A stretch of 64,000 bases of DNA, taken from NCBI GenBank assembly GCA_044892525.1, contig CM097885.1:9488001-9552000 (forward strand), given 5' to 3'. The stretch comes from Schmidtea polychroa. Taxonomy: Eukaryota. A program made the translations under genes and the position numbers. Below are positions 336 to 64,000 of the stretch, piece after piece (positions within the stretch are counted from its first letter, which is position 1; each line of letters begins with the position of its first letter). The notes below the pieces were generated by a model. The model saw nothing but the letters and a program-made list of their open reading frames with translations. It did not search any database and had not been told where the DNA came from.

Positions 336-715
336 TTGTGTGTAATGCACACATGTTTTTACAATAAATTTGTAGTTTTTCGCGCGGTTAACGTAATTTT
401 CTTGGATTTTTATTCATATATTATATAGATAAAATTTAATTTTCTATAAAATAGCTTGATTAAACATTATGTCTAGTATGTTGTGTGTAATACACACATG
501 TTTTTATGATAAATTTGTATTTTTCATACAGTTAACGTAATTTTCTTAGGATTTTATTCATATAATATATAGATAAAATTTAATTTTCTATAAAATGGAT
601 TGATTAGAAATTATGTATCTTGTTTTGTGTGTAATACACACATGTTTTTACGATAAATTTGTATTTATTATACGTTAACGTAATTTCCTTGGATATTTAT
701 TCATATATTATATAT
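336..715. repeat. ~144-bp tandem repeat, about 2.7 copies
   Basis: TGTGTGTAATRCACACATGTTTTTA...ATAAATTTGTA recurs at ~338, ~482 and ~626. Each unit starts with a small TGTGTG/CACACA hairpin. Confidence 0.85.
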
Positions 716-718
716 TAA

Positions 719-3700
719 TATATTAATATAAAAAACACCGATGATTCATGTTTTTTATATAGCATTTTAGCTATTTTAAAATATGATGAGGTTAGTAGTT
801 ATGCTAGAAATAGGACATCCAGTTATAATTTATCTGAATTAATATATAATCCATTGGACTTACCCATGAAATTAAAAGATATTAGAAAATTCGAGGCCAA
901 AAATCCTGGTTTAATAATTAACGTTTTTTCTTATGACAATAACAAACAATTAATAGATAATTACGTTTTAAAACACCCACATTTAGACATTATACATCGT
1001 TCCAAAGTTTTAAATGGAACTGTAATTAATTTACTATTATTAAATAAAGGGAACAATTTCCATTACGTTGCTATAAGCAATTTAAATAGGTTATTGAATT
1101 GTGGTATCAACACTACTTGTCCTACACGCATACGTTCATTATGGTCCCATCGGTGTTTGAATGGGTTTAATAATAGAAACGCACTAGAAAAACATGAAAT
1201 ATTATGCAAACGTAATCAATTAGGAACAACTCTTTATACTTTCCCTCAAAATAAATTCTTACAGTTTACTGACTGGTCGAAAACAGTAACTCCTCCTTTT
1301 GTAGTTTATGCCGATTTTGAGGTTATTTTACCTTCTGATAATGATCATTTTCAGCGACACATGCCAATATCTGCTGGTCTTTTACTAGTAAATAACTTTG
1401 ACGGATCTAAATCTTATCAGCAGTTCATAGGTTTAGATTGCGTCGAGAGTTTTTTAAGTGCTATAGAGGATATAGCATTAAATAAGGTTCTTCCTTTTTA
1501 TTATAAAATGGGTAGGAAACCAATGATTAAATTAACGAAAATTGAGCAACAACAATTCATTAATTCAACGGTTTGTTATCTTTGTTTGAAATCTATCGTG
1601 GATCCTGTTAGAGATCACGATCATTTTATGGGGAAATACTTGGGTGCAGCTTGTAGCACATGTAACGTAAATAGAAAAATAAATAAAATTTTGCCTATCG
1701 TATTTCACAACTTGAAGGGATACGATATGCACCATATACTTAAATTTGGATTAAATAAATTTAAAAATTGGAATTTAGGGTGCATCCCAATAACTACGGA
1801 AAAATTTATATCTTTGATTGCTCATTTAGGTAAAATTAGCCTAAGATTCATTGATTCGTATCAATTTGTCAATGATTCTTTGGCTAAAGCAGTCAAAACT
1901 TTGAATTCTTTGCCTTTTACTAATTCTGCTTTTTCTGGCACCATAGTAAGTGAAAAAGGAATCTTCCCTTATAATTTCGCCACTTCTTTAGATATTCTCC
2001 AAACTACTTATGAATTACCACCAATCTGGGAGGGTGTCACTGAGCTTGAGTATGAAAAAGCTCAGGAGATTTGGGTAGAAACTAATTGCGTAACTTTATT
2101 AGATTATATGATGATCTACCTAAAACTTGATTGTTTTCTTTTGGCTGATTTCTTTCATCAGTTTCGGTTGAAATCCATTGCTCACAATAGATTGGAACCA
2201 TTGAATTATATATCACAATAGATTGGAACCATTGAATTATTTCGGAATTCCAGGCATGTCTTGGTCTTCTGCATTAATGTCTTTAAATGAACCAATTGAA
2301 CTCATAACTGAAAACGAAATGTTTAGCTTTTATGAGGGTGGAATAAGAGGCGGTCTTACTTTTGTGAATAAGCATTACGTAAAAACCGACGAGAACACTG
2401 AGTTACTATATATAGATATTAATAATCTTTATGGCTGGGCTTTAAGTCAATCATTACCTTGTGGCGAATTTTGTTGGGTTCTTGATGGATTTGATAAAAT
2501 AATGGATGAATGTAGGAATTTAAATCTTGAATCTTTGTCTTATGGATACACACTTGAAGTTGATCTTGTAATTCCTTCTGAGCTTCATGATAAGTTGGAT
2601 GATTTCCCTGTAGCTGCTGAAAAAATGAAACCTGCTGGGTCTAAGGTTGAAAAATTATTATTAACTCATCTTCCAAAATCTAATTATGTTATTCATTGGA
2701 GATTATTAAAATTATATTTGGAACTTGGTGTTAAAGTAACACGTGTAAATAGGGGTGTAAGATTTAAGCAATCACCAATTTTTAAAAAATATATAGATAC
2801 AAATACCGAATTAAGATCAAAAAGCGTAAATAGCTTAGATAAAAATTATTATAAATTGCTAAATAATAGTTTATACGGCAAAACAGTTGAAAATTTAAAG
2901 AGAAGAATGAATCTTCGTCTTTGTACAACTGCCGGTAAATTAGTTAAATATTCGTCAAAACCGACTTTTAAAAAATCTATTAAAATAGCAGATAATTTAA
3001 TTGCAGCACTATTGAATTCCGATTCTATATGTTTAGATAGACCGAGTTACATTGGTCAATCTGTACTTGATCTATCTAAACTTAGAATGTATGAATTGCA
3101 ATATAAGGATCTGGAATCAATTCGCAATGAGTTTAATTGTAAAATTAATATCGTTGCAGGTGATACAGATTCTTTTTTCCTCGAAGTCATTAACTGCAAA
3201 CTTGAGGTTCTTTTACCTGCAATGGTTCGAGATAATTTATTGGATACTTCCAATTACAATAGTTGTCATTCCTTATATAGTAAGAACCTTGATTCAGTCA
3301 TTGGAAAGTTCAAAGACGAGAATAAAGGTCTTAAATATAAGGAGTGGGTTTTTCTTAGACCTAAATGTTATAGCTTGTTGAGTGATGAGGAAACAAAAAA
3401 GGCTAAAGGTGTAACATTGAAAGGTAGTGACATAAAACATCAGTCATACCTGGATTGTTATAACACTAACCAGATTTTTTCGGTTCCTCAGACTAAAATA
3501 ACAAGCAAAAATCATCAAATTTTTACAATTAAAAACACAAAAATAGCACTAACTAACAAAGATGACAAAAGGGTTTGGGTGGGGAAAAATACTAGTCTTG
3601 CATATGGGCATGTAAGATTAAGTGAATTAAATATTGGAGAAAATGTTGGAGAAATTGTTGCAGAAAATGTTTCAGAAAATGTTGGAGAAAATGATGGAGA

Positions 3701-3779
3701 AGATGAGGAAGAATTAAATGAAGATTTTGGAGAAGATGACATCGATATCGATGACGTTATTTTGTCCGATGAGGACTAA
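719..3779 (+). pseudogene. Protein-primed family B DNA polymerase (pPolB), Polinton/adintovirus type; 5'-truncated and split by one frameshift
   Basis: The frame is open from 719 (INIKNTDDSCFLYSILAIL). Motifs: VVYADFE (Exo I), endonuclease VII-like CYLC...DHDHFMGKYLGAACSTCN, FHNLKGYD (Exo II), FIDSY, KGIFPY, GIRGG, YIDINNLYG (region A), KLLNNSLYGK (region B), GDTDS (region C), PKCY, KAKGV, DDKR. A 28-bp tandem duplication plus ATA (2182-2240) shifts the frame between ORFs 854-2221 and 2223-3779. Confidence 0.93.
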
Positions 3780-7557: not shown

Positions 7558-8844
7558 GTAAGTTGTAGTTCTTTGTAATGCGATTTACCCCTGAGCAGTT
7601 ATTTTCTGCGTCATATTTCTAAAATTCTTTTTTCGATTAATTTATTTTTTTGTTTTAATAAATATTTCCTTGAAATCTCAATGCAACATTTTTAGAACAT
7701 TTTTATTTTACTAAAATATATTTATTTTTTGTCTGAATCAGGACGATATTCAGAAAGATATCTAAAAAATCTTTGAAAAAAGACAGTGCTGAAAATTTGT
7801 GTTAATTATAGAACAAAATAATGATTTATAAAGGTGTTTGGCAACCATTTTACTTTCTTTCCATTTCATTATTTATTTAAATGAAAAGTTTCGTTGAATT
7901 TAACAAGTTTAAAGTTTTCAAATGCAAACACATCCACCAATTGTTTTAAATAATATATTAGTAAAATAATTTATCTTTTCTTTCACCTTTGATCTGTTTT
8001 TATTTTCATTTTCATTTGTCATGCCAGTTGCGATTCCACCTTTAATGTATATCTTATTTGTGTTAAAGGAATCCAATACCGGAGCAAAAATCAATACTGG
8101 TATTTCGGTATTAAATAATAGCAGTAGATGGATTGGGCACCGCCAGAACAGGACTCCGCTGGCACAGTACCCCCCCCCCACCCCCCGGCCGGAAAAATTA
8201 AAAAAAAATTTTTTTTCAAGGTCAACTTGAGAACAAAGACAATGAGTCATCCGATGACTCATACAACAAAGACAATGACTCATAAAAATTATTATTATTT
8301 TTCAAAAATATTATTAACTGTGCCAGAGGAGTCCTACTTTTCGTCAACCCAAAACATAGTCTGAAACTTAAAATATTTAAACGATTTATAGTTCACTTTG
8401 AAGCCCAGACGGAGACAAATCCTTTGAGCTATCGAAATAATTTTTATCATAATTATTATAAAAGTTATTAATTTTTTAGTCCGACACTGATTGATGAAAA
8501 AATTATTATTATTTTTCAAAAATATTATTAACTGTGCCAGCGGAGTCCTACTTTTCGTTTGTTTAAATCGTTAATTATATAATAATTTTTTTTTGTTTTA
8601 ATTATCAATTCCACAATAATTTCATTTTGTTTAAATCGTTGATTATATTTTTTTTTGTTTTAATTATCAATTACACAATAATTTAATTTTGTTTAAATCG
8701 TTGATTATATTATTTTTTTTTGTTTTAATTATCGATTACGTTTGTTTACATTATCGATTATGTAATTATTTAATTTATCATTATTATTGGGAAAGAACGC
8801 CCGCGCGGAAGATTAAAATTATTATTATTATTTTCAAAGTCTTA

Positions 8845-11320
<2,476 letters not shown>

Positions 11321-11718
11321 TACTCCTAGTCTATCCGACAAAATATTTTGTCCCCCTATGGGTACTGCTCACACTCAACAGGTTGCAAGGGTACTAGTCA
11401 TGCTTATTGTTATACAATATGATATTACTTAGACATTTGAAGGTTCAACCATGGTTACAATTTCTACATTTTGAAAACACTAATTTGATTGGCTATCTCA
11501 ATCGTTATAAATGTAAAAAACAAAAGTAATTTAGTTATTAAGAAATTTATTTATTACTGATGATTTCTACAAGTATGAATATGAATGTGTAAATCACAAA
11601 ACACATTTGGTAACTTTATTATTTTGTCAATATTTTATATATATGTCATTTATAGCAAGGAAATCCTACTAGAAATAAGGAAAAATTAAGTCCAACCTAT
11701 TCCGAAGATAAGCGTTTA

Positions 11719-12207
11719 TTGAAATTTTTCAACAACACAGTTGAAGATTTTATAAATAATTTAACTTACACTGATAAGCAAATCATAAATATTTTAAAAA
11801 TTTTCAAACATTCCTCTATTGAATATTTGATTGATTTATTTAATTATGATAAATGCATTTTGAAGTTATCTAGTTATTTAATGTATTTAGAAAAAACAGT
11901 GGTAAACAACGATTCACTGAATGAATACTTTTGGAGTTGCATGTATTTAAGGTTGAAACCGGGATATAGTAGATTGATTTATGAATGGATAGCAAAAGCC
12001 GACTTGATTGAAAATAAGCTAACGGAAAAACTGAACGATGTTAAGAAAAGGTATTTAACTTGTTCAATTTGTAAAGAAAATCAAGTTTCGGTTTTGTATT
12101 TACCGTGTGGTCACGTAATTGTTTGTTCTAAGTGTCACGAGAAGAATGTTCACAATTGTCAAGCCTGTTCAACACTGATTAATGAATATCATAATATATA
12201 CATGTAA
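11719..12207 (+). CDS. Intronless protein with a C-terminal IAP-type C3HC4 RING finger (element cargo, possibly 5'-damaged)
   Basis: CSICKENQVSVLYLPCGHVIVCSKC...CQAC...IYM* fits the IAP/MDM2-type RING pattern. The frame is open from 11656 with no ATG until late. No BIR domain is visible. Confidence 0.75.
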   Translation: MKFFNNTVEDFINNLTYTDKQIINILKIFKHSSIEYLIDLFNYDKCILKLSSYLMYLEKTVVNNDSLNEYFWSCMYLRLKPGYSRLIYEWIAKADLIENKLTEKLNDVKKRYLTCSICKENQVSVLYLPCGHVIVCSKCHEKNVHNCQACSTLINEYHNIYM

Positions 12208-14613
12208 GTTCTCAATACAAATCAATACAATATCAAAGTTAAATGAATTATTACCATCCATAATGACGGTACTATAATGTAGAAAATTTTCAAACATTGA
12301 ATAATATGAAATCATCTTGGTAATTAAATATATTGGGCGCAACTACCAAATGTTGGTGATATGATGAATGGAATGGTTTGGTATTTATAATATATGATAT
12401 TATTTTAGATTATTCAGAATGAAATATACCCATGAGTTCATCAAAATGGAAAAAAAGATCTTCGCAAAAACCATGATGTTGGAAAAGCAGAAGAAACCCT
12501 AACCAATATTTTAAAGCTGCCATTATAAGTTGCAGTAGTATTGGTTATTATTGTTTCGTAAATAAATGTTTTTATAAATTTATTGTTTTATTGTAATACT
12601 TTTTGATTAAAACATATTCATTTTGTTTTAATATTTGTATTAATTTTTGAAATAGTGCTATTTATATATATGGAAATTTGCATTTCATGAAATATTCATA
12701 ATGATGCTTTTCTCTGTCCATTCATTCTCCTCTGATATTACTGCCATAATCATCTTCGACATAATGCAAAGATAATATTTCTAATGTCTTTGTTAATCAT
12801 GCCCATTTATTGCAAAGTCTTTGTTAATTATGCACTTGTATTGCAAATTTATTAGTCATACAATTATATTATTTTTTCATACCCTGACATAATATTATTT
12901 TATTTTCATTATTATTTTGTTTAACAATACCATATAGCAAATATTTAGGCAATTTAGTGAAAGGGTATTTTAAATATAGGAATTTCTTAAGTAAAATAGA
13001 TAAATTAACCTATTTAGTTAGAAATCCATGTTTTTGGTCGTACCATTTAATTAAAATATTCTTGGATTCATAACAATTTTTATATAGTTGATACATAAAC
13101 CAATTATTTAACTAGAAACATAACAGAATTCGTAGGTAATATAGTATTTTTGTGTATTTTTTAGTTAATTTATAAATATTATCTAACATTTTGATGTATC
13201 AATGCAATATACAACAAATTAATCAATAAAAACCATAGCATATTGTAAGTTTTTATATATATAGTCTGAATTTATCCGACAAAATATTCTGCCCCCCTAT
13301 GTGTATTTGTCGTAAGGGTACTGGTCACATTCAACATGTCGCAAGGGTATATTAATTAAGGCATATGTATATTAGTTAAACATTCTTAGGTAATTTAGTG
13401 AGAAATGCATAATCATTAATAACAACATATATTCATTGATAATTTTGGTAGAAAGTCTTTATCATTTGGAGTAAATTTCTGTCTTTGTTCGAGTCAAAAA
13501 GGAATCATAATAGAAACATGATCATTTGGTTATCATTTAACCAATTAAGGTGCTTATTTGTTAGAAATATAGGGTTACAATTCTTTTCTAATTTAATGAG
13601 ATGACCATTGCGTGTAATATATCTTTGTGAGAAATATATGGTTAACATTTTTAAATAGGGATTTTTGAGTAACTTTTACCAAAACAGGGATATTTTGCGT
13701 GAATAATTTAAGAATATTGGTTAATTTTCTCTTTTTCAGTCATTTAAAATAATATTTAACAAAGGTAATTTAGCAAAATATCATTGAAAGATTTATCCAT
13801 TCGATAACAATATTCCTTCAATAGATTGTACCCTTTATTCAACCGATTTAATTTCTAGAAATCTAATTAAAATCTTACCATCAAATACCTAACTAGAGAT
13901 GAAATATTGATCATAATTCTTCATCGATTCAGCCAATTATATAGCAATTATATCTTTCAAAATCACAAATTTCAGTATATTTTACAATAATTTTCAAGTA
14001 GATTTCAAATATATCATCATGATAAAATTAGCTGGTTTCAACTTTCGATTTTCAATATTTAAAAGTTCATCAATATTCGTAGAAAATATATGAAAAAATT
14101 ATTTAGTCAATATCATTACAAAGTCAACATAAAAATTAAATAATAATCACTTGATTATTGTAAAAACTCTAATTATTAACCTAACTGTCATTAAAAATAA
14201 TTTTTATTTAAAATTTAAAAACAAGTCAATAAAATATAGCAAATTATCAAGAAATTAATTAAATTTGTCTTAGAATTAACACTAAAACCTTAAATTTTAA
14301 ATATTCTTTCAAATAATAGAAATAATTATTTCAATTGTATAGAAATAATGTAAGTAAAATCCCGCTAACTCTAAAAATTACCAATGAATTTAATGCTAAA
14401 TAATAACCAAAAATTTGCCTAAATAAAATCATTAAAACACACCAGTACCTTTACGACCAGTACCCTTACGAGCAGTACCAATTGTGAACAGTACCCATAG
14501 AGGGAGAAAATATCTTGTCGGATAAACTCAGAGTATATATAATAAAACGAATTAACAATAACTCCATCAAATTGAATCAGTCAAATTTTGATAAAAAAAA
14601 TCTTATTCTATAG

Positions 14614-20316: not shown

Positions 20317-23300
20317 TTGAAAATAACATCTCCCGCGCGGAGGTTAATATCTTTACCAATAATAATGTTAATAATGATATATATATATATATATATCAGT
20401 AGATAGATCTTGCACTGAAAATTGCATTCTGAAATGTTATCATTAAGAAAATAATTAAAAAAAATTATTACTCCAGAGGTCAAATGCAAGAAGAATTACA
20501 AAATTCTCGCTCAATCGCTCAAGAAAGACTCAAAGAACTATCGCAATTATCAATAGTATATTTATTGAAAATTATTGAAAATGTGATTAAAACAAATTAT
20601 TTTTGAAAAATAGGAGCTGATTGTCGTGAAAGAGGAAAACCAAAAATTGGAGTCGCAGATAAATTATATGAAAAGGTACCTAAATCAAATTTCACAGGAA
20701 TACCAGAAACAGATAAAAAATTATGCCACTTTAAAACTTGTAATTTTCATTTTATAGCGATTTGTGAAAAATGATTTAAACAAATAATTATATTTTTATT
20801 TAGGATGGAATGAACTCTAATGGAAATACAAATACAAATTATAAAATGGAAATATCTTCCTTACTTAATCAGTATGATTCAGTTTACGCTACCAAAGAGA
20901 ATCAACTGAAAACCTCTATGAAGGATCTAGAAAATAGACTTAACGCTTTGAGATCCTGGAGTGACAAGGCAATCATCGAGTACATGTAATGCTTATGTGA
21001 AAACTTTCTACATATTCGAATGTAATTATTTTTAAGATTAATCAGAGATCAAGTGAAACAAATGGACAACATAAATATTGGTCCCGACCCTAAAGATATT
21101 ATAGCCAGCAATCCTACACCAACTGAGACAGTGAAGTTATTAAAGAAATATTTCGACAACCAAGAATCTCATAAAACGTAATTTCCATGATTAAATATTA
21201 TATTTTACGTGGCGTGTCCATTAAGTAGTAGGCCTAATTTAGAAAACAAGGGGCAATTCCAAAACATTGTTTTACTCACAATATAGAATTGTTTCAATAA
21301 AACTTCCGAAAACGTTAATCCATAATTAAACATAATAAAATACAACGAAATAAAAAAAATACAACTGCATCCCACCTCTGACAACCAATCACCGTAATGC
21401 ATCTTTGGTGCTGGTGCTTCTAGAGGGTGAATTTAAAACATTTAAAACCATTATATAATAATATTTAATAAATATTAACAATTAAATGATAATTTAAGCT
21501 TTTTGCTGCAAATATCATATAATACAAATGAAAAAATTTTCGACTAATTTCTATTCGACGAAATTGACAAGGACTATCGTAGGTACTTCCGTGTTATCTT
21601 ACCGCCAAAAATTAAATTATAAAATACAATTAAAATAACAATATAAAAAATGAGAGAATACATTATTGATGATGTTATTGAACATTATTGAACATGAATT
21701 TATTAAGGCTATCTGTGATTTATGTGATTATGTGAGTTTATATGGCGCAAACGTGTTCTAAGTAACAGTGCCGATGTGTTCGACACTATTCTCAACGACA
21801 TTGTGGTTTTCTAGCCACCTGGATGACCATTTACAAACTCTTTACAAACATTTGCTGAGTTTGTAACTGTGATTTAGAAAATAAATATAATAATTATATG
21901 TGTTCTTTTTTAATTTAGTTTTTGGGGGTAAGATAACACGGAAGTACCAAATCATATAGTGGAAACTTTTTTATATTGTATTAAATATATTATTTACAGC
22001 AAAAGGCTTAAATTACTTTATAATTAATAAATAGTAATAATAATAAGCACCGAATATCATTATTAAATCAATTCCTAAAACTTATAATATGAAAAAGCAT
22101 CTTAGATAACCATATTTTTCTATCAAATATATATAAATTGACTGAATTACTGAATGGAGGTTGAAAATAAACGTAATATTTACAAAGAATTTGTGAATTG
22201 TTATTCCAACTAAATTGCCTGCTAATATGTAAATTTTGCTTGAGAACAATTATGTACTTCTTACTTAATAACGCAACCCCCCCACATATGTCCTGGTAAA
22301 TTCCAAAGAGTAAGGCAGCATGAAAGTAAAAAATTACAATTTAAAATACATTTATAGTAGTATGATGTGAGCTCCCCAGACCAGGAGCCCGCCAGGCCAC
22401 ATATACCCCCTCCCCCCCCCCGGGAAAAAATTTTTAGAACGATGCCACATATTTTTAGAACTATTGCGTAATTTTTAAATTAAGTGATCCAGAGTGCTCA
22501 CACTTTTTTTCATCCCAAAAATTTAATGTTCTCGTTAACAGATTTTATTGGACGATACCTCTTCTTAAAGCTCAGTCCAAGACCTTTCGAATGAGCTATA
22601 TGTATTTTATATATCTTTAATAGTTTTAATGTTATTAACAATTGATGACCACCATCTTTTCAACGTTAAATTATTATTATTATTCAAAATATTATTAATT
22701 GGTCCAGCGGGCTCCTACTTTTTTTCATCCCAAAAATTAATGTTCCCATTATCCGAATTTATTGGACGATACCTCATCTTAAAGCTTAGTGCAAGACCTT
22801 TCGAATGAGCTATTGAAGGTATCATCATCATTAATATTAACAAAGAGAATGACTCACCCAATGACTCACCCAACGATGCCAAATATTTTTAGAATGGTGC
22901 CTCTTATTTTTAGAATGGTGCCTCTTATTTTTAGAATGATTACGTCATATTTTTAGAATGATGCCTAATATTTTTAGAATGATTACGTTATAATTTTAGA
23001 ACGATGCCTAATATTTTTAGAATGATTACGTTATAATTTTAGAACGATGCCTAATATTTTTAGAATGATGCCTAATATTTTTAGAATGGTGCCTCTTATT
23101 TTTAGAATGGTGCCTCTTATTTTTAGAATGATTACGTCATAATTTTAGAACGATGCCTAATATATTTAGAACGATGTCTAATATTTTTAGAATGATTACG
23201 TCATATTTTTAGAACGATGTCTTATATTTTTAGAATGATGCCTAATATTTTTAGAATGATTACGTCATATTTTTAGAACGATGCCTCTTAATTTTAGAAT

Positions 23301-26300
23301 GATGCCTAATATTTTAGAATGATTACGTAATATTTTTAGAACGATGTCTAATATTTTTAGAATGATGCCTAATATTTTTAGAACGATGACTCACCCTATG
23401 ACTCATAATTTTTTCCAAAATATTATTAATTGATCCAGAGGGCTCACACTTTTTTTCATCCCAAAAATTAATGTTCCCGCCAACCGATTTTTCTGATTGA
23501 TACCTCATCTTAAAGCCCAGTGCAAGACCTTTAAGATGAGTTATAGATTCATATCATATGATGCCTCATCACATTTTTAGAACAAAGACAATGGCTCACC
23601 CAATGTCTCACCTTATTTTTAGAACGATTACGTCATATTTTTAGAACGGTGCCTAATATTTTAAAACTGATTACGTCATATTTTTAGAACGATGCCTAAT
23701 ATTTTTAGAATGATTACGTCATATTTTTAGAACGATGACTAATATTTTTAGAATGACTCATCACATTTTTAGAACGATGCCTAATATTTTTAGAGCGACG
23801 CCTCGTATTATTTTTCAAAATATTATTAGTGATCTAGCGGTGACATGGTTTTCGTTTGCCCAAAATTTATCGTTCCCATCATTCTACTTCATCGATCGAT
23901 AGCTCATTTTAAAGCCCAGTACAAGACCTTTAAGATGAGTTATAGATTCCTATCATCCCATGACTCGTCATATTTTTAGAACGATACCTCTTATTTTTAG
24001 AATGATTACATCATATTTTTAGAACGATGCCTCTTATTTTTAGAACGATGCTTAATATTTTTTAGAATGATTACGTAATATTTTTAGAATGATGCCTCAT
24101 ACGATGACTCATCATATTTTTAGAACTAATAATTTTTGTTTTAATTATTGATTACATAATAATTTAATTTTGTTTAAATCGTTGATTATATAATTTTGTT
24201 TAAATCATTGATTATATAATTTTTTGTTTTAATTATCGAATACGTAATAATATAATTTTGTTTAAATCGTTGATTACATATTATTATTTTTTAATTTTCA
24301 ATATTTTCTTTTAAAATATTAACGCGAGCAGGGAATATTATTATCATATATACTCCTAGTCTATCCGACAAAATATTCTATCCCTCTATGGGTAATGGTC
24401 ACAAGGGTACTACTCACATTCAACATGTCGCAAGGGTTTTCGATCTTAAAGCATATTATGGTTTATTAAGGTTAGTAAATAAAACTTATAACACCTACTA
24501 TTTTTAATAATATTTAAACGATAAAAATCAAGACAAGAGAGGACAAGGCAAAGTTTATGCATTTAGTATTGCCAGGCCTAATGAGCAGTGACCAAATATC
24601 TGTGCCTGAAAGACACGGTGGATATTTGTTCGCGTCCACAAGGGTCGTCTGTGCCTCCCCAAGTGGGGTCAGAAGCACCTGGGCATTATAGCTTTCCGTA
24701 CGGAACATTACGCCTAGCATGGGTAGTCAACTACCAGCACATTCGAAACGTATAATTTCAAAATACATGCGTCATTGGCACTATAACCAAATTAATTAAT
24801 GTTTTCACTAACACAAACATATATTTACAGAGGCCTCCCACTAGTTGGATTACAACCGCCCACCACGACGATCAGCTTGTAAATATATATTAATTAAGGG
24901 ATAAAGAGGACCCACCCAACCCTATTATATTTAATTTACAAAAGGTTTCTCGCTCTTCTGCTGGTAATCTATCTCAAAATTATCATCTCCATCGGGCCAT
25001 TTGGAATACATCTTGCAAATTGGATGTATTTCTTAGTTTCTGATGCGGTTTCAACTATCATTGCTAAAATTTAAAAGCCATTACAGATGTTATTTAACAT
25101 TTTATCGCCACAGGCTTGATAAATTAGGCAACTGTTATTTGTGGTATACTTTATCAATATAATTTCTTATCAATTCACACCATAAAACACCGATACCTAA
25201 ATATAATATATATATTTTAAAGAATTAATTCATGTCTTACATTCGAAATCTTTCATATTCTTCAGGTATGATGAGTACTTAATTGCTAAAACATCGGTTT
25301 TCCCATTTTTCTTGACATTCGTAGAAAGAAAGTTTACATAATTTAAGTCTGATAAGTAAACATTCATGTTGAAGGACACCCACAATCATCTAATTCATTT
25401 AAGAAATCTCTAAATCCACAACATAAGTCCTTTAGTGTTTCAGCATTTTTTCTGGTTCATCTTCTTCATAATTATATAATTCATTTTCTTCATTACTAAG
25501 TAAAATAATTAAAATATTGTAGTAAATTCTTTATATACTTACTTTATGGATACTAAAACGAAAGAAAAAAGTTATATGAAAAGTTTATTTAAATAATTTA
25601 AATTTAGTTATTTAAAAATATTTAAACAATTTAGTTATTTAAGCATATTTAAACATTAATATAGTAAAATTTTATATAATATTATAATATTATGTACACT
25701 TATATATCCTTCATTTAATTTTTTAAGTTCAAAAATTTATAATGAAGATTCTTTGAATTAAAAAAATATTCTGTTAGTATTTCCAGGCAGAAAACAACGA
25801 ATTCAATAATTAAAATCTTAATTTTCATGTTGTTAGGGTTGTGGCCAGAAGTTAATCGCCATCTATTCGTTTGTTCAGTTATCACCCTGTTCTCAATTTC
25901 GCTAAATTTTGTTCAAAAAATTCTATTTTCAATGGTATATTAAAAACATTTAAGGTATCCTTCAGTAAAATAATATAGTATTTTTGAGTATGTTTTAGTT
26001 AATTTATAAATAACAGTATTTTGATATATCAATAAAGACCATATACTCCGAGTTTATCCGACAAAATATTCTGTCCCCCTATGGGTATTGCTAGCAAGGG
26101 TACTACTCACATTCAACATGTCGCAATATTAATCAGTTAGAAATTCTTAGGTAATTTAGTGAGATGATCAGAAATTCGTGAATATTTTAAATGTAACTTT
26201 ACACTTATGTCGAGCGACTAATTTATTGGTTAACATTTTAGACATTTAAAGCAAAAGGTAATTTATTCATCTAATGTTCGTTACAATAGTTAATAATATG

Positions 26301-29300
26301 AGAAAAACATGGTCATTATTCATTGATAATTTTAAATTCTTTATCATTTGGAGTAAATTTGTTCGAGGCAAAAATATTTAAAGGAGTCATAATAGAAATA
26401 TGGTTATCATTTAACCAAATAAGGTGCTTATTAGTTAAAAATACATGTTCATATAGGGTTACAATTCTTTTCTAATTTAATTAGATGATCATTAGACGTA
26501 ATATATCTTTTCGAGAAATTTAAGATGTTTGAGTAACCAAAACATGGATATTTTGTGCGATAAATTTATGAATATTGGTTAATTTTGTTATTTTTAGACA
26601 TTTAAAATAATATTTAGCAAAGGTAATTTAGCAAAATATCATTTATCCACCCGATAACAATATTCATTCAATAGATTAACTGATATTCAACCTATTTAAT
26701 TTCTAATTAAAATCATAAATTTCCTTCAATAAAGTTAAATTTTCTTTAGTTGTCGATGTCCAACTCTTTTAAGTCTATATTTTTGTTACCGTTATCTTCA
26801 TAATGAATGTCCGTCTTTAACATGTTAAAGCAATAATTTAAAGCAATAACCTTTGATATCAATTATCTCTAAATATTTCATTGACAAAACCAAGTAAATT
26901 AGTCATTAACCCTAAACACTTTGATAAAATCCTGGATAATTAATAGACTATTTCCCTTGAAACATTTCCAATAAGAACATCACCCATTTAAATATTCAAA
27001 ACATTTCCACCCTAACCGATCCCTCACCAAATATTTCTACCCCTTTAAACATTCAACCGACTATATCCCCCTTTAAATACTATATATTCCCAACTTAACC
27101 GAACCCTCACTAAATCCAACCGACTATATCTCTTAATTTCACCCACTTGAGCCCTTTAATATATCTTAAAATCTATAGAAAAATCTTCAAAATATGAATT
27201 TTATTTAATTGTTACAGACATTTTTCCATTGAAATAATTTAGTAGCTAAATTCAAAGAGTCCACTTAAAGATCAAAATTCATTAAAATAAATATTTAACC
27301 ACATGTATCATCAAATACCTAACTAGAGATGATAATATCTCATTAATTGATCATAATTATAACCATTATAACATGATATATCTTTCAAACTAAATCACAA
27401 ATTTCAGTATATTTTACATTAATTTTCAAGTAGATTTCAAATATATCATCATCGTGATAAAACTAGCTGGTTTCAACTTTAGATTTTCAATATTTTAAAG
27501 TTCATCAATGTGTAAATATTCTTAGAAAATATATGAAAAAATTAATTAGTCAAATTCAATATCATTACAAAGTCATCATCATCAAAATTTATCCTATCAC
27601 TTGATTATTAACCTCATTAAAAATTAATTTTTATTTAAAATTTAAAAACAAGTCAATAAAATATAGCAAATTATCAAGAAATTAATTAAATTTATCTTAG
27701 AATTAACACTAAACCTTAAATATTCTTTCAATTAACATGAAATTCACAAAAAATGTTAGTAAAATCCTCTAAAAAATTACCAATGAATTTAATGCCAAAT
27801 AATAACCAAATATTTGCCTAAATAAAACACACCAATACCTTTACGACCAGTACCCTTACGACCAATACCCTTACAAGCAGTACCCATAGAGGGAGAAAAT
27901 ATCTTGTCGGATAAACTCAAAGTATATATAATAAAACGAATTAACAATAACTCCATCAAATTGAATCAGTCAAATTATCACAAATTTTAATAAAAAATCT
28001 TATTCTAAAATGGTAAGCAGCGTAAAATCGAAAGATAATTTTGATAACACAGAGATAAAATTAACAATATTATTCTCAGGTGGTAAGAATCATCATTATT
28101 ACATGATTAATTAATAATGAAATTCAAAAAGGTGAAAATAAGTGTTTGAATTATTCATTAATGGAAAGTAAAACTAAACATAGCGAGAAGTGGCATAGAT
28201 AAGATGGAAATATATTAATTGCATTTATTTAAAATTATTTCATGAAATTCATTAGAATAATGACTTTAATAAAAAATATTTAATAAAATGTTCAACGAAA
28301 TATTTGTTGGGAGGATTAGTGGAAAATGGGGGGGGGGGCTATAAGTGATGAGGATATATAAAATTATTTCTAATATATGAGTTACTAACGAATTAAATTA
28401 TTTTAATAATGTGATAAACATTTATTTTGATAGAGTATTTAATCCACAAATGAAAACATACATAACAAATGGTATTTGACTGAGCAATTATGATAAATTC
28501 ATATTTTAAATTTTGATTAACTCCTTTAATATTGAATTATTATATTTACTATTTTACACTAAATATTTCAAAAACAAATATTCTAAAAGATAATTTAAGA
28601 TACATTACTCTTTTCAATCAAAATGATCTCTCAAAGTTAAGAAGGAAACAAAGTGTGCCAGAACACATACCCAGCATTAACATTAAAACACCAAGTAATC
28701 AATGATAATAGAGGGATAACAGACTCAAAAAAAAATTATTCTTACCACCTGAGAATAATATTGTTAATTTTATCTCTGTGTTATTAAAATTATCTTTCGA
28801 TTTTACGCTGCTTACCACTTTAGAATAATATTTTTTATTAAAATTTGTGATAATTTGACTGATTCAATTTGATGGAGTTATTGTTAATTCGTTTTATTAT
28901 ATATATACTCTGAGTTTATCCGACAACATATTTTCTCCCACTATGGGTACTGCTTGTAAGGGTATTGGTCGTAAGGGTACTGGTCGTAAAGGTACTGTTG
29001 GGTTTTAATGATTTTATTTAGGCAAATATTTGGTTATTATTTGGCATTAAATTCATTGGTAATTTTTTAGAGGATTTTACTAACATTTTTTGTGAATTTC
29101 ATGTTAATTGAAAGAATATTTAAAGTTTTAGTGTTAATTCTAAGACAAATTTAGTTAATTTCTTGATAATTTGCTATATTTTATTGACTTGTTTTTAAAT
29201 TTTAAATAAAAATAAATTTTGATGATGATGATGACTTTGTAATGATAATTTGACTAAATAATTTTTCATATATTTTTCTAAGAATATTTACACATTGATG

Positions 29301-32300
29301 AACTTTAAAATATTGAAAATCTAAAGTTGAAACCAGCTAATTTTATCACGATGATGATATATTTGAAATCTACTTGAAAATTAATGTAAAATATACTGAA
29401 ATTTAGTTTGAAAGATATATCATGTTATAATTGCTATATAATTAGTTGAATCGATGAAGAATTATGATCAATTAATGAGATATTATCATCTCTAGTTAGG
29501 TATTTGATGGTAAATGTGGTGAAATATTTGTAGAAAATATTGATTTTAGTAAATTTTGATTTTTTAATGGGCTCTTAATGCATGAATTTAGATACTAAAT
29601 TATTTCAATGGAAGGATGTCTGTAACAATTAAATAAAAATCATATTTTGAAGAATTTTCTATGGATTTTAAGAGATTTGATATATTAAAGGTCTGATATA
29701 TTAAAATGATAGAAATATTTGGTGAAGGATCGGTTAAGGTGGAAATGTTTGAAATCTCTATTTAAATCGACAATATTCTTATTGGTAAAATTTTAAAGGG
29801 AAATAGTCAGTATTTAGCTATGAATTAATAATAGTTCCTGTGAAATTATATCGTTTTAGAGGTTTATTAGGTTGTGATGAATGTTATTGTACAATAATTT
29901 AGATTTATGTTTTAGAACCAGTTTTTTTATTAATTATCCACTGTTTTATTAATGGTTAATGATCAATTTACTTGGTTTTCACAATGAAATATTTGAAATC
30001 TTTAGAATTAATTGATATCAAAGGTTTGCTTTAAATTATTTACTTAAGAAGTTATTTTATTCATTGTGGGGACATCAGTGACAAAACTTGAGAAATATTG
30101 ACTTAAAAGTTGGAAATCGACAACAGCTAAAGAAAATTGATCTTTATTGAAGGAATTTTATGATTTTAATTAGATTTCTAGAAATTAAATCGGTTGAATA
30201 TTAAAGGTAAAATCTATTGAAGGAATATTATTATCGGATGGATAAATCTTTCAATGATATTTTGCTAAATTACCTTTGCTAAATATTATTTTAAATGACT
30301 AAAAATGACAAAGTTAACCAATATTCTTAAATTATTTGCATAAAATATCCCTGTTTTGGTAAAAGTTACTCAAAAATCCCTATTTAAAAATGTTAACCAT
30401 ATATTTCTCACAAAGATATATTACACCCAATGATCATCTCATTAAATTAGAAAAGAATTGTAACCCTATAAGCACCTAATAAGCACCTTATTTGGTTAAA
30501 TGATAACCATATTCCTATTATGAATCCTTTAAATATTTTGCCTCGAACAAATTTACTCCAAATGATTAAGAATTTAAAATTATCAATGAATGATGACCAT
30601 GTTTTTCTCATATTATTAACTATTGTAACGAACATTAGATGAATAAATTACCTTTTGCTTTAAATGTCTAAAATGTTAACCAATAAATTAGTCGCTCGAC
30701 ATAAGTGTAAAGTTACATTTAAAATATTCACGAATTTGTGATCATCTCACTAAATTACCTAAGAATTTCTAACTGATTAATATTGCGACATGTTGAATGT
30801 GACCAGTACCCTTGCTAGCAATACCCATAGGGGGACAAAATATTTTGTCGGATAAACTCTGAGTATATGGTCTTTATTGATATATCAAAATACTGTTATT
30901 TATAAATTAACTAAAACATACTCAAAAATACTATATTATTTTACTGAAGGATACCTTAAATGTTTTTAATATACCATTGAAAATAGAATTTTTTGAACAA
31001 AATTTAGCGAAATTGAGAACAGGGTGATAACTGAACAAACGAATAGATGGCGATTAACTTCTGGCCACAACCCTAACAACATGAAAATTAAGATTTTAAT
31101 TATTGAATTCGTTGTTTTCTGCCTGGAAATACTAACAGAATATTTTTTTAATTCAAAGAATCTTCATTATAAATTTTTGAATTTAAAAAATTAAATGAAG
31201 GATATATAAGTGTACATAATATTATAATATTATATAAAATTATACTGTATTTATTAATAAATTTAGAATACATAAAATTATAATATTATTTAAAATTATA
31301 CTATATAATAATGTTTAAATATGCTTAAATAACTAAAGTGTTTAAATATGTTTAAATAACTAAATTTAAATTATTTAAATAAACTTTTCATATAACTTTA
31401 TTTCTTTCGTTTTAGTATTCATAAAGTAAGTAAATAAAGAATTTACTACAATATTTTAATTATTTTACTTAGTACTGAAGAAAATGAATTATATAATTAT
31501 GAAGAAGATGAACCAAACAAAATGGTGAAACACTAAATGACTTATGTTCTGGATTTAGAGATTTCTTTTTAAAACATGAATTATTGGATTATGAACCAGA
31601 CAAAATGGTGAAACACTAAAGGAGTTATAGTTCCGGATTTCTTAAATGAATTGGCCGATTGTGGGTGTCCTTCAACATGAATTATCAGATTAAAATTATG
31701 TAAACTTTCAACGAATGTCAAGAAAAATGGGAAAAATCGATGTTTTAGCAATTAAGTAAAGTACTCGTCATACCTGAAGAATATGAAAGATTTCAAATGT
31801 AAGACATGAATTAATTCTTTAAAATATATATATTATATTTAGGTATCGGTGTTTTATGGTGGGAAATGACATTGAAAAAGTATACCATAAATAACAGTTG
31901 CCTAATAGTCAGACAGAATTTAATTTGTGACGATAAAATGTTAGATAATGTAAATTAATTGCTTTTAAATCAATATAAATTTTAGCAATGATAGTTGACA
32001 CCGCATCAGAAACTAAGAAATACATCCAATTTGCAAGATGTATTCCAAATGGCCCGATGGAGATGATAATTTTGAGATAGATTACCAGCAGAAGAGCGAG
32101 AAAAATTTGTAAATTAAATATAATAGGGTTGGGTGGGTCCTCTTTATCCCTTAATTAATATATATTTACAAGCTGATCGTCGTGGTGGGCGGTTGTAATC
32201 CAACTAGTGGGAGGCCTCTGTAAATATATGTTTGTGTTAGTGAAAACATTAATTAATTTGGTTATAGTGCCAATGACGCATGTATTTTGAAATTATACGT

Positions 32301-34930
32301 TTCGAATGTGCTGGTAGTTGACTACCCATGCTAGGCGTAATGTTCCGTACGGAAAGCTATAATGCCCAGGTGCTTCTGACCCCACTTGGGGGAGGCACAG
32401 ACGACCCTTGTGGACGCGAACAAATATCCACCGTGTCTTTCAGGCACAGATATTTGGTCACTGCTCATTAGGCCTGGCAATACTAAATGCATAAACTTTG
32501 CCTTGTCCTCTCTTGTCTTGATTTTTATCGTTTAAATATTATTAAAAATAGTAGGTGTTATAAGTTTTATTTACTAACCTTAATAAACCATAATATGCTT
32601 TAAGATCGAAAACCCTTGCGACATGTTGAATGTGAGTAGTACCCTTGTGACCATTACCCATAGAGGGATAGAATATTTTGTCGGATAGACTAGGAGTATA
32701 TATGATAATAATATTCCCTGCTCGCGTTAATATTTTAAAAGAAAATATTGAAAATTAAAAAATAATAATATGTAATCAACGATTTAAACAAAATTATATT
32801 ATTACGTATTCGATAATTAAAACAAAAAATTATATAATCAATGATTTAAACAAAATTATATAATCAACGATTTAAACAAAATTAAATTATTATGTAATCA
32901 ATAATTAAAACAAAAATTATTAGTTCTAAAAATATGATGAGTCATCGTATGAGGCATCATTCTAAAAATATTACGTAATCATTCTAAAAATATTAGGCAT
33001 CGTTCTAAAAATATTAGGCATCGTTCTAAAAATAAGAGGTATCGTTCTAAAAATATGACGAGTCATAGGATGATAGGAATCTATAACTCATCTTAAAGGT
33101 CTTGTACTGGGCTTTAAACTGAGCTATCGATCGATGAAGTAGAATGATGGGAACGATAAATTTTGGGCAAACGAAAACCATGTCACCGCTAGATCACTAA
33201 TAATATTTTGAAAAATAATACGAGGCGTCGCTCTAAAAATATTAGGCATCGTTCTAAAAATATGACGTAATCATCGTTCTAAAAATGTGATGAGTCATTC
33301 TAAAAATATTAGGCATCGTTCTAAAAATATGACGTAATCATTCTAAAAATATTGGGCCTCGTTCTAAAAATATGACGTAATCAGTTTAAAAATATTAGGC
33401 GCCGTTCTAAAAATATGACGTAATCGTTCTAAAAATAAGGTGAGACATTGGGTGAGCCATTGTCTTTGTTCTAAAAATGTGATGAGGCATCATATGATAT
33501 GAATCTATAACTCATCTTAAAGGTCTTGCACTGGGCTTTAAGATGAGGTATCAATCAGAAAAATCGGTTGGCGGGAACATTAATTTTTGGGATGAAAAAA
33601 AGTGTGAGCCCTCTGGATCAATTAATAATATTTTGGAAAAAATTATGAGTCATAGGGTGAGTCATCGTTCTAAAAATATTAGGCATCATTCTAAAAATAT
33701 TAGACATCGTTCTAAAAATATTACGTAATCATTCTAAAAATATTAGGCATCATTCTAAAATTAAGAGGCATCGTTCTAAAAATATTAGGCATCATTCTAA
33801 AAATAAGGTGAGTCATTGTCTTTGTTCTAAAAAATATTAGGCATCGTTCTAAAAATATGACGTAATCATTCTAAAAATAAGAGGCATCATTCTAAAAATA
33901 TAAGGCATCGTTCTAAAAATATGACGTAATCATTCTAAAAATATTAGACATCGTTCTAAAAATATTGGGCATCGTTCTAAAATTATGACGTAATCATTCT
34001 AAAAATATTAGGCGTCGTTCTAAAATTATGACGTAATCATTCTAAAAATAAGAGGCACCATTCTAAAAATAAGAGGCACCATTCTAAAAATATTAGGCAT
34101 CGTTGGGTGAGTCATTGGGTGAGTCATTCTCTTTGTTAATATTAATGATGATGATACCTTCAATAGCTCATTCGAAAGGTCTTGCACTAAGCTTTAAGAT
34201 GAGGTATTGTCCAATAAATTCGGATAATGGGAACATTAATTTTTGGGATGAAAAAAAGTAGGAGCCCGCTGGACCAATTAATAATATTTTGAATAATAAT
34301 AATAATTTAACGTCGAAAAGATGGTGGTCATAAATTGTTAATAACATTAAAACTATTAAAGATATATAAAATACATATAGCTCATTCGAAAGGTCTTGGA
34401 CTGAGCTTTAAGATGAGGTATCGTCCAATAAAATCTGTTAACGAGAACATTAATTTTTGGGATGAAAAAAAGTGTGAGCACTCTGGATCACTTAATTTAA
34501 AAAATTACGTAATAGTTTTAAAATATTATGCATTGATTACGTAATAGTTCTAAAAATATGTGGCATCGTTCTTAAATTTTTTTTCCCGGGGGGGGGTGGT
34601 ATATGTGGTCTGGCGGGCTCCTGGTCTGGGGAGCTCACATCATACTACTATTTATTTTGTTTTAATTAATTTAATCGAATCATTAAGAGATTCTTCTAAC
34701 CTTATGGAATTGAGACAACAAATTAAAGAGTTTGGAAACACAACGGTGACCGACTTGGAAATTGAAAGAGCTCAACTAATCTCGAGGAACGTGGAATTAG
34801 AACAAGAGTTATTAGCAGCACAAGATTACATTGATTATTATCTTAAAAAGTAAGATGTTTAGGAGTTTAATTTGATTAAGGAATATTTAGAAAGCTCACC
34901 TCGAGAATTCCTAGAAATAAGAATCTCTGA
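16173..34930 (+). CDS. CCDC78: CCDC78-like coiled-coil protein, spliced. Exons: 16173-16388, 16441-16608, 19701-19808, 19880-19974, 20477-20555, 20614-20739, 20804-20985, 21037-21177, 34688-34849, 34891-34930
   Basis: All introns are GT-AG and phase-consistent through to TGA at 34928-34930. EEEKLRSSKLIMDLEIRNRQLKEQMETVRFDLLNKILHLEEKL resembles DUF4472. LRQQIKEFGNTTVTDLEIERAQLISRNVELEQELLAAQDYIDYYL resembles the CCDC78 C-terminus as I remember it. The start codon lies upstream. Confidence 0.72.
21582..21948. mobile_element. Small TIR element, possibly Merlin-derived, nested inside a second inverted-repeat pair (~21490/22016)
   Basis: TIRs GGTACTTCCGTGTTATCTTACC / GGTAAGATAACACGGAAGTACC are a 22-bp perfect match that extends further. 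The outer pair is TAATTTAAGCTTTTTGCTG / CAGCAAAAGGCTTAAATTA. Confidence 0.7.
22860..24130. repeat. Subterminal 22-24 bp tandem array of the left arm (mirror at ~32925-34130)
   Basis: Dozens of TTTTTAGAA(T/C)GATGCCTAATA and TTTTTAGAATGATTACGTCATA units, interspersed with ~130-bp modules. Confidence 0.9.
24565..24740. ncRNA. Candidate structured RNA inside the palindrome arm (mirror ~32305-32485)
   Basis: A GC-richer island with nested stems: TGCCAGG/CCTGGGCA, GCAGTGACC/GGTCGTCTGT, CAAATATC/GATATTTG, CCCC-AAGT-GGGG, TTCC-GTAC-GGAA, GGTAG-TCAA-CTACC. Family not recognised and strand unknown. Confidence 0.35.
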
Positions 34931-39500: not shown

Positions 39501-60499
<20,999 letters not shown>

Positions 60500-62760: not shown

Positions 62761-62810
62761 CAGCCTTCTTTTTAAAATATTTTTTAAATATAACAATCAT
62801 ATCAATTTAA

Positions 62811-64000
62811 TCATGAAAAACAACTTCAAAATGGCCAAATTTGAATGCATTTTTTATGTACCAATGTCGTCAACAGTTTATTTTAAAGAAAATCATAAAA
62901 TTTTGAAATTAAAATCTTTAAACTCTTTAGAAATTTCGCTTAATTGAAAAAGACGTATTTCATTTTAAAAGAATATTACGATTACCAAAATGTTCATTTA
63001 TCACTATAATTTACAAATTTGGAGAAAATATCTTAAAAAATCTAAAAACATTATTCAATAAATAATCACCATTTTTTGCTCAAAATGGATAAATAAAATT
63101 AAAATAAATGGTTAATAATATAATGTTGAACCAGAATACCGATAATTAAAAACAATTCAATTAATTAACGAAAATTAACAAAACGTTTGTCAGCGTAAAG
63201 CCACACACCATGAAAACCACAACAAGTTACTAAAGATCTACAAATAAAACACCAAATAAACAAGAAATTAAACAAGAACCCCTAATTAAAAATAAAAAAC
63301 CCAAAAACCGAGTAAAAGGAATAAAACCTTTAAAACACAAAATTAAATCAAGAAAAATAGAAATCAAAAATCATTTAAAAAACTCTTCATAATATTAATA
63401 TGTTTTTTACTTAAACTTTGATAAAAGATTAAATTGCGGGAGATTAGCCTCATTAATTTTTAAATCTTGAAAATATTTATTTAATTATATAATAAATTTA
63501 ACAATAATAAATAATATTAGTGAGCATATTAGTGAGCACAAAAGGGCTGTAAGATTAAAATAGGTATGTTATTAAAAAATTTCGATAATTATTGGGAACG
63601 TGTGATTTGTGAGGCGTTGTTGATAAAGTCATAGAATCCAAAAATTAATGTGCAGAATGCAGTGAATATTTGTATTTTAAATGTTTTTAAATAATTTTTT
63701 TTCTTGTATATTGTATGTATTGATTGTTGTGTTAAATTAAATAATTAATAAAATTTTTTAAATTATTAAATTAAATTTTGAATGTTTAAAATTTTTAAAA
63801 ATAATATATTAATTTAATTATAATTTTAAAGTAATAATTAAATGTTTTTATTAAATAAAAAGTTTTTATATAATTAATAAATTTGTTTAAAATCCTTAAT
63901 TTACATAGTTATTATATCCCATCTGATGATGACAGGAAAACTGTCGAAATATATCGTGAAAAGAATGTTTGATTGGCGTTATCTTATAATTAAATGATTG
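62811..64000. mobile_element. Penelope-like element remnant, copy 2 (runs off the window)
   Basis: Direct repeat of 40912-42101 with small indels. Confidence 0.7.
63920..63958 (+). ncRNA. Minimal type I hammerhead ribozyme, copy 2
   Basis: CAT-CTGATGA-T-GACAGGAAAACTGTC-GAAA-TATA-TC-GTG. The C>T change in stem I still allows a U-G pair. Confidence 0.78.

What the first reader, a model, noticed from the sequence alone, without database searches (positions are those of the whole stretch)
22356..34649. 12.3-kb fully palindromic Polinton-type element that integrated as one unit
Seen: AGTAGT...ACTACT termini, an exact 6-bp TSD (ATTTAT), ~5.7 and ~5.9 kb reverse-complementary arms around a ~650-bp spacer, and no intact gene. 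Known: AG...CT termini and 6-bp TSDs are Polinton/Maverick hallmarks, but their TIRs are usually about 1 kb or less. Each arm is collinear with the left end of the related element at 8120-14613, so the element looks like two left ends joined back to back. Inference: this is a snap-back or defective-interfering genome from pPolB strand-displacement replication with template switching, integrated in trans by a helper integrase. That would make it a giant hairpin satellite of a Polinton/adintovirus.
Basis: partly seen in the sequence, partly recalled or inferred. Interest (0 to 1): 0.85.

Follow-up and report, generated by a model that had tools for sequence, protein, structure and literature searches.

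The report
Giant palindromic Polinton satellite family member
This 12.3-kb stretch is one of hundreds of gene-less, mirror-image jumping elements in an animal genome that share their ends with virus-like Polinton transposons and likely borrow their enzymes to spread, and each arm carries a conserved copy of the ribosome-docking head of the cell's 7SL RNA that may be made into an RNA.

Summary
In detail: AGTAGT/ACTACT ends, exact ATTTAT duplication, 5.7 and 5.9 kb mirror arms, ~647-bp spacer, no genes. It is not a one-off. It belongs to a family of several hundred loci; 14 of 14 other sampled copies with both ends found have their own 6-bp duplication. Intact-looking Polintons with the same ends have only ~1.5-kb TIRs. 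In 19 of 22 copies the two arms are at least as alike as either is to any other copy. This copy is an exception: its arms (5.5% apart) come from different sub-lineages, a recombinant not yet evened out. Palindromes of coding Polintons also occur, only from the polymerase end (9 of 91 loci against 0 of 100 integrase loci), with short native inverted repeats at the three centres I could resolve. Each arm holds a 7SL Alu-domain-like unit, the least variable part of the arm. Fold-back during protein-primed replication and mobilisation in trans are inferred; no monomeric parent of this family was found. The scan noted this family before at other loci of this genome. Ten literature searches listed no description.

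The parts
22350..22355 (.). left target-site duplication ATTTAT
34650..34655 (.). right target-site duplication ATTTAT
22356..28090 (+). left arm
28738..34649 (-). right arm (mirror of the left; 94.5% identical without gaps)
28091..28737 (.). unique spacer (~647 bp); one of two spacer types in the family, 18-20% apart
22356..24437 (+). TIR proper: AGTAGT terminus, C-tract, 21/43-bp repeat arrays, ending in the ~90-bp motif; homologous to the TIR of the intact-looking Polinton
32612..34649 (-). TIR proper of the right arm
24347..24437 (+). ~90-bp motif that marks the inner TIR edge in coding Polintons; mirrored at 32612-32701
26041..26126 (+). second copy of the ~90-bp motif; mirrored at 30783-30868
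27860..27950 (-). third, inverted copy of the ~90-bp motif; one derived palindrome elsewhere is joined at this inverted pair
24789..24876 (-). 7SL/SRP Alu-domain-like unit (core 24833-24876), pointing outward
32172..32259 (+). mirror copy of the 7SL Alu-domain-like unit
26334..27300 (.). zone where the two arms differ by 7-21% with large indels and are closest to different sub-lineages (partner 30575-29500)
8120..14613 (+). related, diverged neighbour element (shares TIR motifs and inner arm; carries a RING-finger ORF at 11656-12207); not part of the palindrome

Best explanation
The element is a gene-less, palindromic copy of a many-copy family that carries Polinton ends and is likely replicated and inserted by the polymerase and integrase of intact Polintons in the same genome. 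Shown: ends, TSDs, copy number, fixed arm-spacer junctions, arms alike within copies, exchange of arms between copies, spacers and the capsid half of coding Polintons, and palindromes only of the polymerase end. Inferred: (1) such palindromes arise when a strand made by protein-primed strand displacement folds back at a short inverted repeat and copies its own end; (2) the product has two origins and two integrase ends and spreads as a satellite; (3) free copies recombine, and a displaced strand that snaps back lets one arm be re-copied from the other; (4) this copy is a recombinant inserted before that was complete; (5) the 7SL-like unit is kept by selection, probably as a short Pol III RNA.
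For: Family size: 218 exact hits of a spacer 27-mer, 711 of an arm 25-mer, 1,539 of the 7SL-like 30-mer; 62 of the first 100 of the last lie in 31 outward pairs within 10 kb (strand-shuffled mean 8.6, maximum 18). 17 of 20 systematically sampled spacer hits and 7 of 10 of the second spacer type have both arms. 14 of 14 with both ends found have a 6-bp TSD, all different. Helper-type element: 16.8 kb, same terminus, ATPase, integrase and protease by Pfam, pPolB by tblastn and homologues. Arms: median 0.15% within a copy against 1.5% to the nearest other copy; 19 of 22 within <= nearest. Arm lineage is decoupled from spacer type; 2 of 20 sampled hits are capsid-half/arm hybrids joined at an ATT tract. 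Coding palindromes: 5 of 5 inverted pPolB pairs fetched are palindromes with TSDs; two loci share one 101-bp spacer with different TSDs. Centres: native inverted repeats of 7, 5 (7 of 8) and 4 bp in the three resolvable cases; two more centre on the TIRs of a nested element whose flanks are inverted, not direct. End bias 9 of 91 against 0 of 100, Fisher p=0.001. 7SL-like unit: Rfam E 3e-6, 42 of 58 identical to the host 7SL 5' end, 7 stem changes of which none breaks a pair (3 double changes), lowest diversity of 37 bins (0.0024).
Against: No monomeric parent of this family was found, so its own fold-back point is untested; the arm interior has no protein homology. For 9 further pPolB palindromes the centre could not be matched to a monomer, and several spacers are long (0.6-3.5 kb); one more centre (C1j) was also unresolved. 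2 of 11 inverted pPolB pairs were not palindromes. 3 of 22 copies break the within<=nearest rule (two true chimeras, one near tie). Sequence alone cannot separate re-copying before insertion from gene conversion after it, nor fold-back from recombination between two molecules at the same repeat. The 7SL-like hit is below the Rfam cut-off (31.8 against 70 bits), the two-sequence shuffle control is uninformative (71 of 500), and the longer predicted fold is not supported (z -1.47; 34 variants break pairs, 15 keep them).
Confidence: 0.62

Rival explanations
1. The family moves by a helper integrase without a free replication phase; palindromes form and are evened out in the chromosome by hairpin breakage and arm-to-arm gene conversion, as in Y-chromosome palindromes.
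For: Explains identical arms; in several copies identity is highest next to the spacer and falls outward; short inverted repeats also seed chromosomal palindromes (recalled).
Against: All 14 TSDs are intact and palindromes end exactly at element termini; arms reassort between unlinked loci and spacer types; an insertion in one arm was not copied to the other; this copy keeps 5.5% difference. A single crossover between two molecules also gives the inner-alike, outer-different pattern (inference).
Confidence: 0.2
2. Same satellite, but palindromes arise by recombination between two oppositely oriented molecules at short inverted repeats rather than by one strand folding back.
For: Recombination between copies is shown; long asymmetric spacers and centres on nested TIRs fit it.
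Against: Homologies of 4-7 bp and a 20-nt hairpin centre suit self-priming better; arms of young coding palindromes are over 99% identical.
Confidence: 0.12
3. Simple internal-deletion derivative of an autonomous Polinton that normally has ~6-kb TIRs.
For: Polintons with ~2-kb gene-containing TIRs are reported (10.1101/2025.02.07.637071, passages); some shorter family members could be internal deletions.
Against: The intact-looking relative has ~1.5-kb TIRs and none of the inner arm except the ~90-bp motif; 0 of 100 integrase hits are mirrored.
Confidence: 0.04
4. Assembly or amplification fold-back chimera.
For: Fold-back reads make palindromes (recalled); polishing could make arms look more alike.
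Against: Exact and distinct TSDs, shared junctions across loci, arms 5.5% apart with large indels.
Confidence: 0.02

Closest known systems
Polintons/Mavericks (self-synthesising, virus-like DNA transposons)
   Same: (AGT)2 ends, 6-bp TSD, TIR sequence shared with coding members; size 12-14 kb near the 13-25 kb range (PMC10748475, passages; PMC8097293, passages).
   Different: No protein genes; arms of 6-7 kb make up 95% of the element against TIRs of 100-1,500 bp; carries a 7SL-like unit.
Non-autonomous Polintons, MITE-like and Foldback-like elements (recalled)
   Same: Gene-less, TIR-bounded, moved in trans, many copies.
   Different: Ten to fifty times longer than MITEs; arms evolve in concert within a copy; palindromes arise repeatedly and from one end only.
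Snap-back or defective-interfering genomes of AAV (PMC10924063, passages) and inverted-repeat deletion genomes of adenovirus (recalled, paper not held)
   Same: One end duplicated around a loop; centres at short or nested inverted repeats.
   Different: Here they are integrated, inherited and form lasting lineages that reinsert; free or packaged forms are not shown.
SRP (7SL) RNA Alu domain and 7SL-derived SINE1 (PMC4238359, passages; PMC7245038, abstract)
   Same: 5' three-way junction, U-turn sequence and two loop-loop pairs kept against the host 7SL.
   Different: No S domain; not a free SINE (11 of 11 unpaired hits lie in arm context); carried by a DNA element.

Membership tests
Polinton/Maverick | (AG)n or (AGT)2 termini | tested here: met
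Polinton/Maverick | 6-bp target-site duplication | tested here: met
   ATTTAT here; 14 of 14 other copies with both ends
Polinton/Maverick | encodes pPolB and integrase (autonomous member) | tested here: not met
   no ORF >=120 aa, no Pfam or tblastn hit inside the arms
Polinton/Maverick | TIR of 100-1,500 bp | tested here: not met
   5.7-5.9 kb here, 6-7 kb in relatives
Non-autonomous Polinton derivative | ends shared with a coding Polinton of the same genome | tested here: met
   terminus and TIR blocks 80-89% identical; 634 and 517 exact hits of its integrase and polymerase 26-mers
Non-autonomous Polinton derivative | dispersed copies with their own TSDs | tested here: met
Snap-back/defective-interfering genome | one end of a parent duplicated, centre at a short inverted repeat | tested here: inconclusive
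   met in 3 resolvable coding palindromes and 2 nested-TIR cases; no parent found for this family
Snap-back/defective-interfering genome | replicates free of the chromosome, is packaged, interferes with the helper | not testable with these tools
   needs free-DNA or particle data
SRP (7SL) RNA | full-length match above the Rfam cut-off, with S domain | tested here: not met
   31.8 bits against 70; only the 5' domain aligns
SRP (7SL) RNA | Alu 5' domain helices kept | tested here: met
   15 of 16 named pairs in both sequences, 3 double changes; two-sequence control uninformative
SRP (7SL) RNA | transcribed by Pol III and bound by SRP9/14 | not testable with these tools
   needs RNA and binding data
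7SL-derived SINE1 | independent dispersed copies outside a carrier element | tested here: not met
   11 of 11 unpaired hits lie in arm-homologous DNA

The most novel reading that the evidence does not exclude
A heritable class of hairpin satellites of a polintovirus: snap-back genomes made only from the polymerase end, replicated and possibly packaged by the helper, swapping arms with it like segments, and expressing a captured 7SL Alu-domain RNA that engages SRP9/14 or ribosomes, an analogue of adenovirus VA RNA carried by the parasite of the virus.
Probability: 0.2. Interest if true: 0.9.

Novelty: new variant of a known kind. Interest (0 to 1): 0.68.

Why it matters
How Polintons replicate has been inferred from their genes, not seen. 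Hundreds of integrated palindromes with datable arms, mappable fold-back points and a one-ended bias are fossil replication intermediates: they make strand displacement, arm re-copying and an end-specific signal testable from sequence and free-DNA data. The family also shows that 6-7 kb near-perfect inverted repeats can be stable and abundant in an animal genome, and that a gene-less satellite may carry a host-derived structured RNA.

Tried and rejected
1. 'Parent' reading of two capsid-bearing loci: rejected; their left half is 98.7% identical to the coding Polinton and they hold only part of the spacer, so they are later hybrids. 2. Decayed polymerase inside the arms: no tblastn or Pfam signal. 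3. tRNA genes: 0 in the window. 4. Full-length 7SL-like fold of 355 nt: not supported (20 of the 51 loci were picked by the unit itself). The first pair count used a mis-set structure and was redone. 5. Rfam on 7 loci of coding elements: 0 hits at E<=0.05. 6. Public runs: no RNA holder listed. Contigs of 4 runs cover 28-29 of 29 bins of the spacer region, but the best pieces reach only 29-30 letters past the left junction and 13 past the right, short of the tool's 31-letter rule: inconclusive. 7. Empty site through a repeated flank: no paralogue reaches the insertion point. 8. Centres of 9 further pPolB palindromes could not be matched to a monomer. 9. Homologue search of the polymerase gave 9 unnamed proteins. 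10. Bacterial promoter scan is irrelevant here and gave chance levels. 11. Rows dropped: in the arm trees, copies lacking an anchor or one arm, with a large insertion or a deleted inner arm (8 of 30 sampled palindrome-type or broken loci plus the single-arm hybrids kept apart). 12. Papers sought and not held: the 2006 Polinton paper and the adenovirus inverted-repeat paper.
Full report
Observation. The element runs from 22356 to 34649, begins AGTAGT, ends ACTACT and is flanked by ATTTAT on both sides. The arms are 5,738 and 5,915 bp, 94.5% identical without gaps, around a ~647-bp spacer. Identity is patchy: 0% substitutions over 24096-24900 and 25734-25934, 7-21% with large indels over 26334-27300. 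There is no ORF of 120 aa or more inside and no Pfam hit in 12 read-throughs.

Setting. The window is G000:C1:9488001-9552000 in a 781-Mb, AT-rich genome. A mir-753 hit at the Rfam cut-off at 56336-56397 fits a planarian host; that distribution is recalled. The genome is full of Polintons: 8,819 first-look candidates for the protein-primed polymerase family, 91 scored. One 16.8-kb locus (C2:45566856-45583643, TSD ATATTA) has the same terminus as our element, ATPase, integrase and protease by Pfam, two unnamed ORFs in the capsid positions and a 1,388-aa polymerase ORF. Its TIR is about 1.5 kb, within the 100-1,500 bp given in PMC10748475 (passages). So long arms are not normal for the helper type.

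A family, not an accident. Exact pattern counts: 218 for a spacer 27-mer, 711 for an arm 25-mer, 1,539 for a 30-mer of the outer arm. Of the first 100 hits of the last, 62 form 31 outward-pointing pairs within 10 kb; strand shuffling gives 8.6 on average. Scaled up this is roughly 500 palindromes among about 1,000 loci (inference from one chromosome arm). Of 20 spacer hits taken at every fifth row of the first 100, 17 have both arms, 2 are hybrids and 1 is interrupted. Of 10 loci with the second spacer type, closer to ours, 7 have both arms. All 14 copies in which both termini were found have a 6-bp TSD, each different. The arm-spacer junctions are the same across copies.

Arms evolve together, and this copy is an exception. 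Over the inner 3.6 kb, the two arms of a copy differ by a median 0.15%, the nearest arm of another copy by 1.5%; 19 of 22 copies are within <= nearest. Our element (5.5%) and C1:266844100 (4.2%) have arms from different sub-lineages; the third exception is a near tie between sister copies. In 26563-27267 our left arm is nearest one clade and the right arm another. Arm lineage and spacer type are decoupled. In several copies the inner arms are identical and the outer parts, even the termini, differ; in the two chimeras the reverse holds. Both patterns follow from crossovers between two copies plus re-copying of one arm from the other (inference). Assembly polishing could add to the sameness, but the assembly clearly kept unlike arms apart here.

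Which end. Two sampled loci carry ATPase, integrase, capsid-position ORFs and protease, 98.7% identical to the coding element, and then, at an ATT tract, switch to part of the spacer and one arm in place of the polymerase half. In C1 0-31 Mb, 6 of 39 integrase hits are such hybrids and 8 have the polymerase pattern. The arm therefore acts as a right, polymerase-side end. Coding palindromes show the same bias. All 5 inverted polymerase pairs among the 91 scored hits are palindromes of 7.4-16 kb with TSDs and outward-pointing genes. With exact patterns, 11 outward pairs appeared among 100 polymerase hits, 9 confirmed as palindromes with 9 different centres, against no inverted pair among 100 integrase hits (p=0.001). 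An end-specific signal such as packaging, or selection against inward-pointing genes that would make double-stranded RNA, could each explain this (inference). Two loci share one 101-bp spacer but have different TSDs, so coding palindromes also move; one has an extra AGT at one end, as jumping-back initiation would give (mechanism in PMC8097293, passages).

How centres form. Where a monomer was at hand, the centre lies at a native inverted repeat: 7 bp around 40 nt in the capsid gene, 5 bp (7 of 8) around a 20-nt hairpin in the polymerase gene, 4 bp around 101 nt. Two others centre on a small nested TIR element whose flanks are inverted rather than direct, so the palindrome was formed at its TIRs. 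Ten other centres could not be resolved. Shorter members of our family show new joints with overlaps of 0-68 bp, which fold-back and deletion would both give. For our family no monomer was found, so its origin is by analogy.

An RNA-like cargo. Following a lead from an earlier scan note, Rfam found a Metazoa_SRP match at 24789-24876 (-) and its mirror, E 3e-6 but 31.8 bits against a cut-off of 70. The first 58 nt are 42/58 identical to the host's own 7SL genes. Of 10 differences in the first 44 nt, 7 are in stems and none breaks a pair; 3 pairs change on both sides (the shuffle control on two rows is uninformative). The 100-bp bin holding it has the lowest diversity of 37 bins in 24 arms chosen by spacer (0.0024, most bins 0.02-0.07). 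It is not a free SINE: 11 of 11 unpaired hits sit in arm context. A longer 7SL-like fold is not supported, and the unit was not found in 7 loci of coding elements. Expression is untested.

Mechanism. Shown: a gene-less, mobile, palindromic family with Polinton ends, recombining with itself and with coding Polintons. Inferred: origin by fold-back during protein-primed strand displacement, replication and insertion in trans, arm re-copying in the snapped-back strand (0.62). Main rival: chromosomal gene conversion with integrase-only movement (0.2).

Novelty. Paper searches (listings only) showed no description of palindromic Polinton satellites or of a 7SL-like cargo; passages of PMC10748475, PMC8097293, PMC6431247 and 10.1101/2025.02.07.637071 hold no 'palindrom' hit, the last reporting ~2-kb gene-containing TIRs. 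Subscription papers, Repbase entries and supplements were not seen and may hold a non-autonomous Polinton entry for this family. The scan itself noted the family at seven other loci of this genome; look-ups for the 7SL-like unit returned nothing. Class: new variant of a known kind; interest 0.68.

Noticed in passing
window 683-3779 (+), terminus at 4954: Polymerase half of a second Polinton family, split into two ORFs (719-2221, 2205-3779); a TIR of the first family's type ends at 229 just upstream.
   Followed up: partly
window 11656-12207 (+): RING-finger (zf-C3HC4_3, E 2e-9) ORF carried by the related element at 8120-14613, in the position where the palindrome has its 7SL-like unit.
   Followed up: partly
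window 14613 onward: The related element is cut at 14613 by an unrelated sequence that looks like the end of another DNA transposon; its right terminus was not found.
   Followed up: no
window 56336-56397 (-); weaker at 42970-43034: mir-753 precursor match at the Rfam cut-off (62.3 bits).
   Followed up: no
window 40878-42101 and 62773-64000: 1.2-kb direct repeat, 95% identical, 22 kb apart; 45247-45567, 49332-50529 hold 320-bp inverted repeats.
   Followed up: no
L006 (G000:C2:5210214-5218580): 8.4-kb element with one family's terminus on the left, the other family's on the right, a polymerase ORF and an exact 6-bp TSD (AATGTA): mixed ends can be inserted.
   Followed up: partly
L021-L023, L044 (G000:C1:139674924-139700392): A polymerase palindrome inserted with its own TSD into one arm of a copy of this family.
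   Followed up: yes
L097 (G000:C1:22387400-22393900): Another palindromic family shares the outer arm and the 7SL-like unit but has a different interior and spacer.
   Followed up: partly
L087-L089 (G000:C2:31.93-31.98 Mb): Host 7SL genes form a tandem array with a 593-bp unit.
   Followed up: no
G000:C1:90648199/90650739: One inward-pointing pair of polymerase hits 2.5 kb apart, unlike all other pairs.
   Followed up: no
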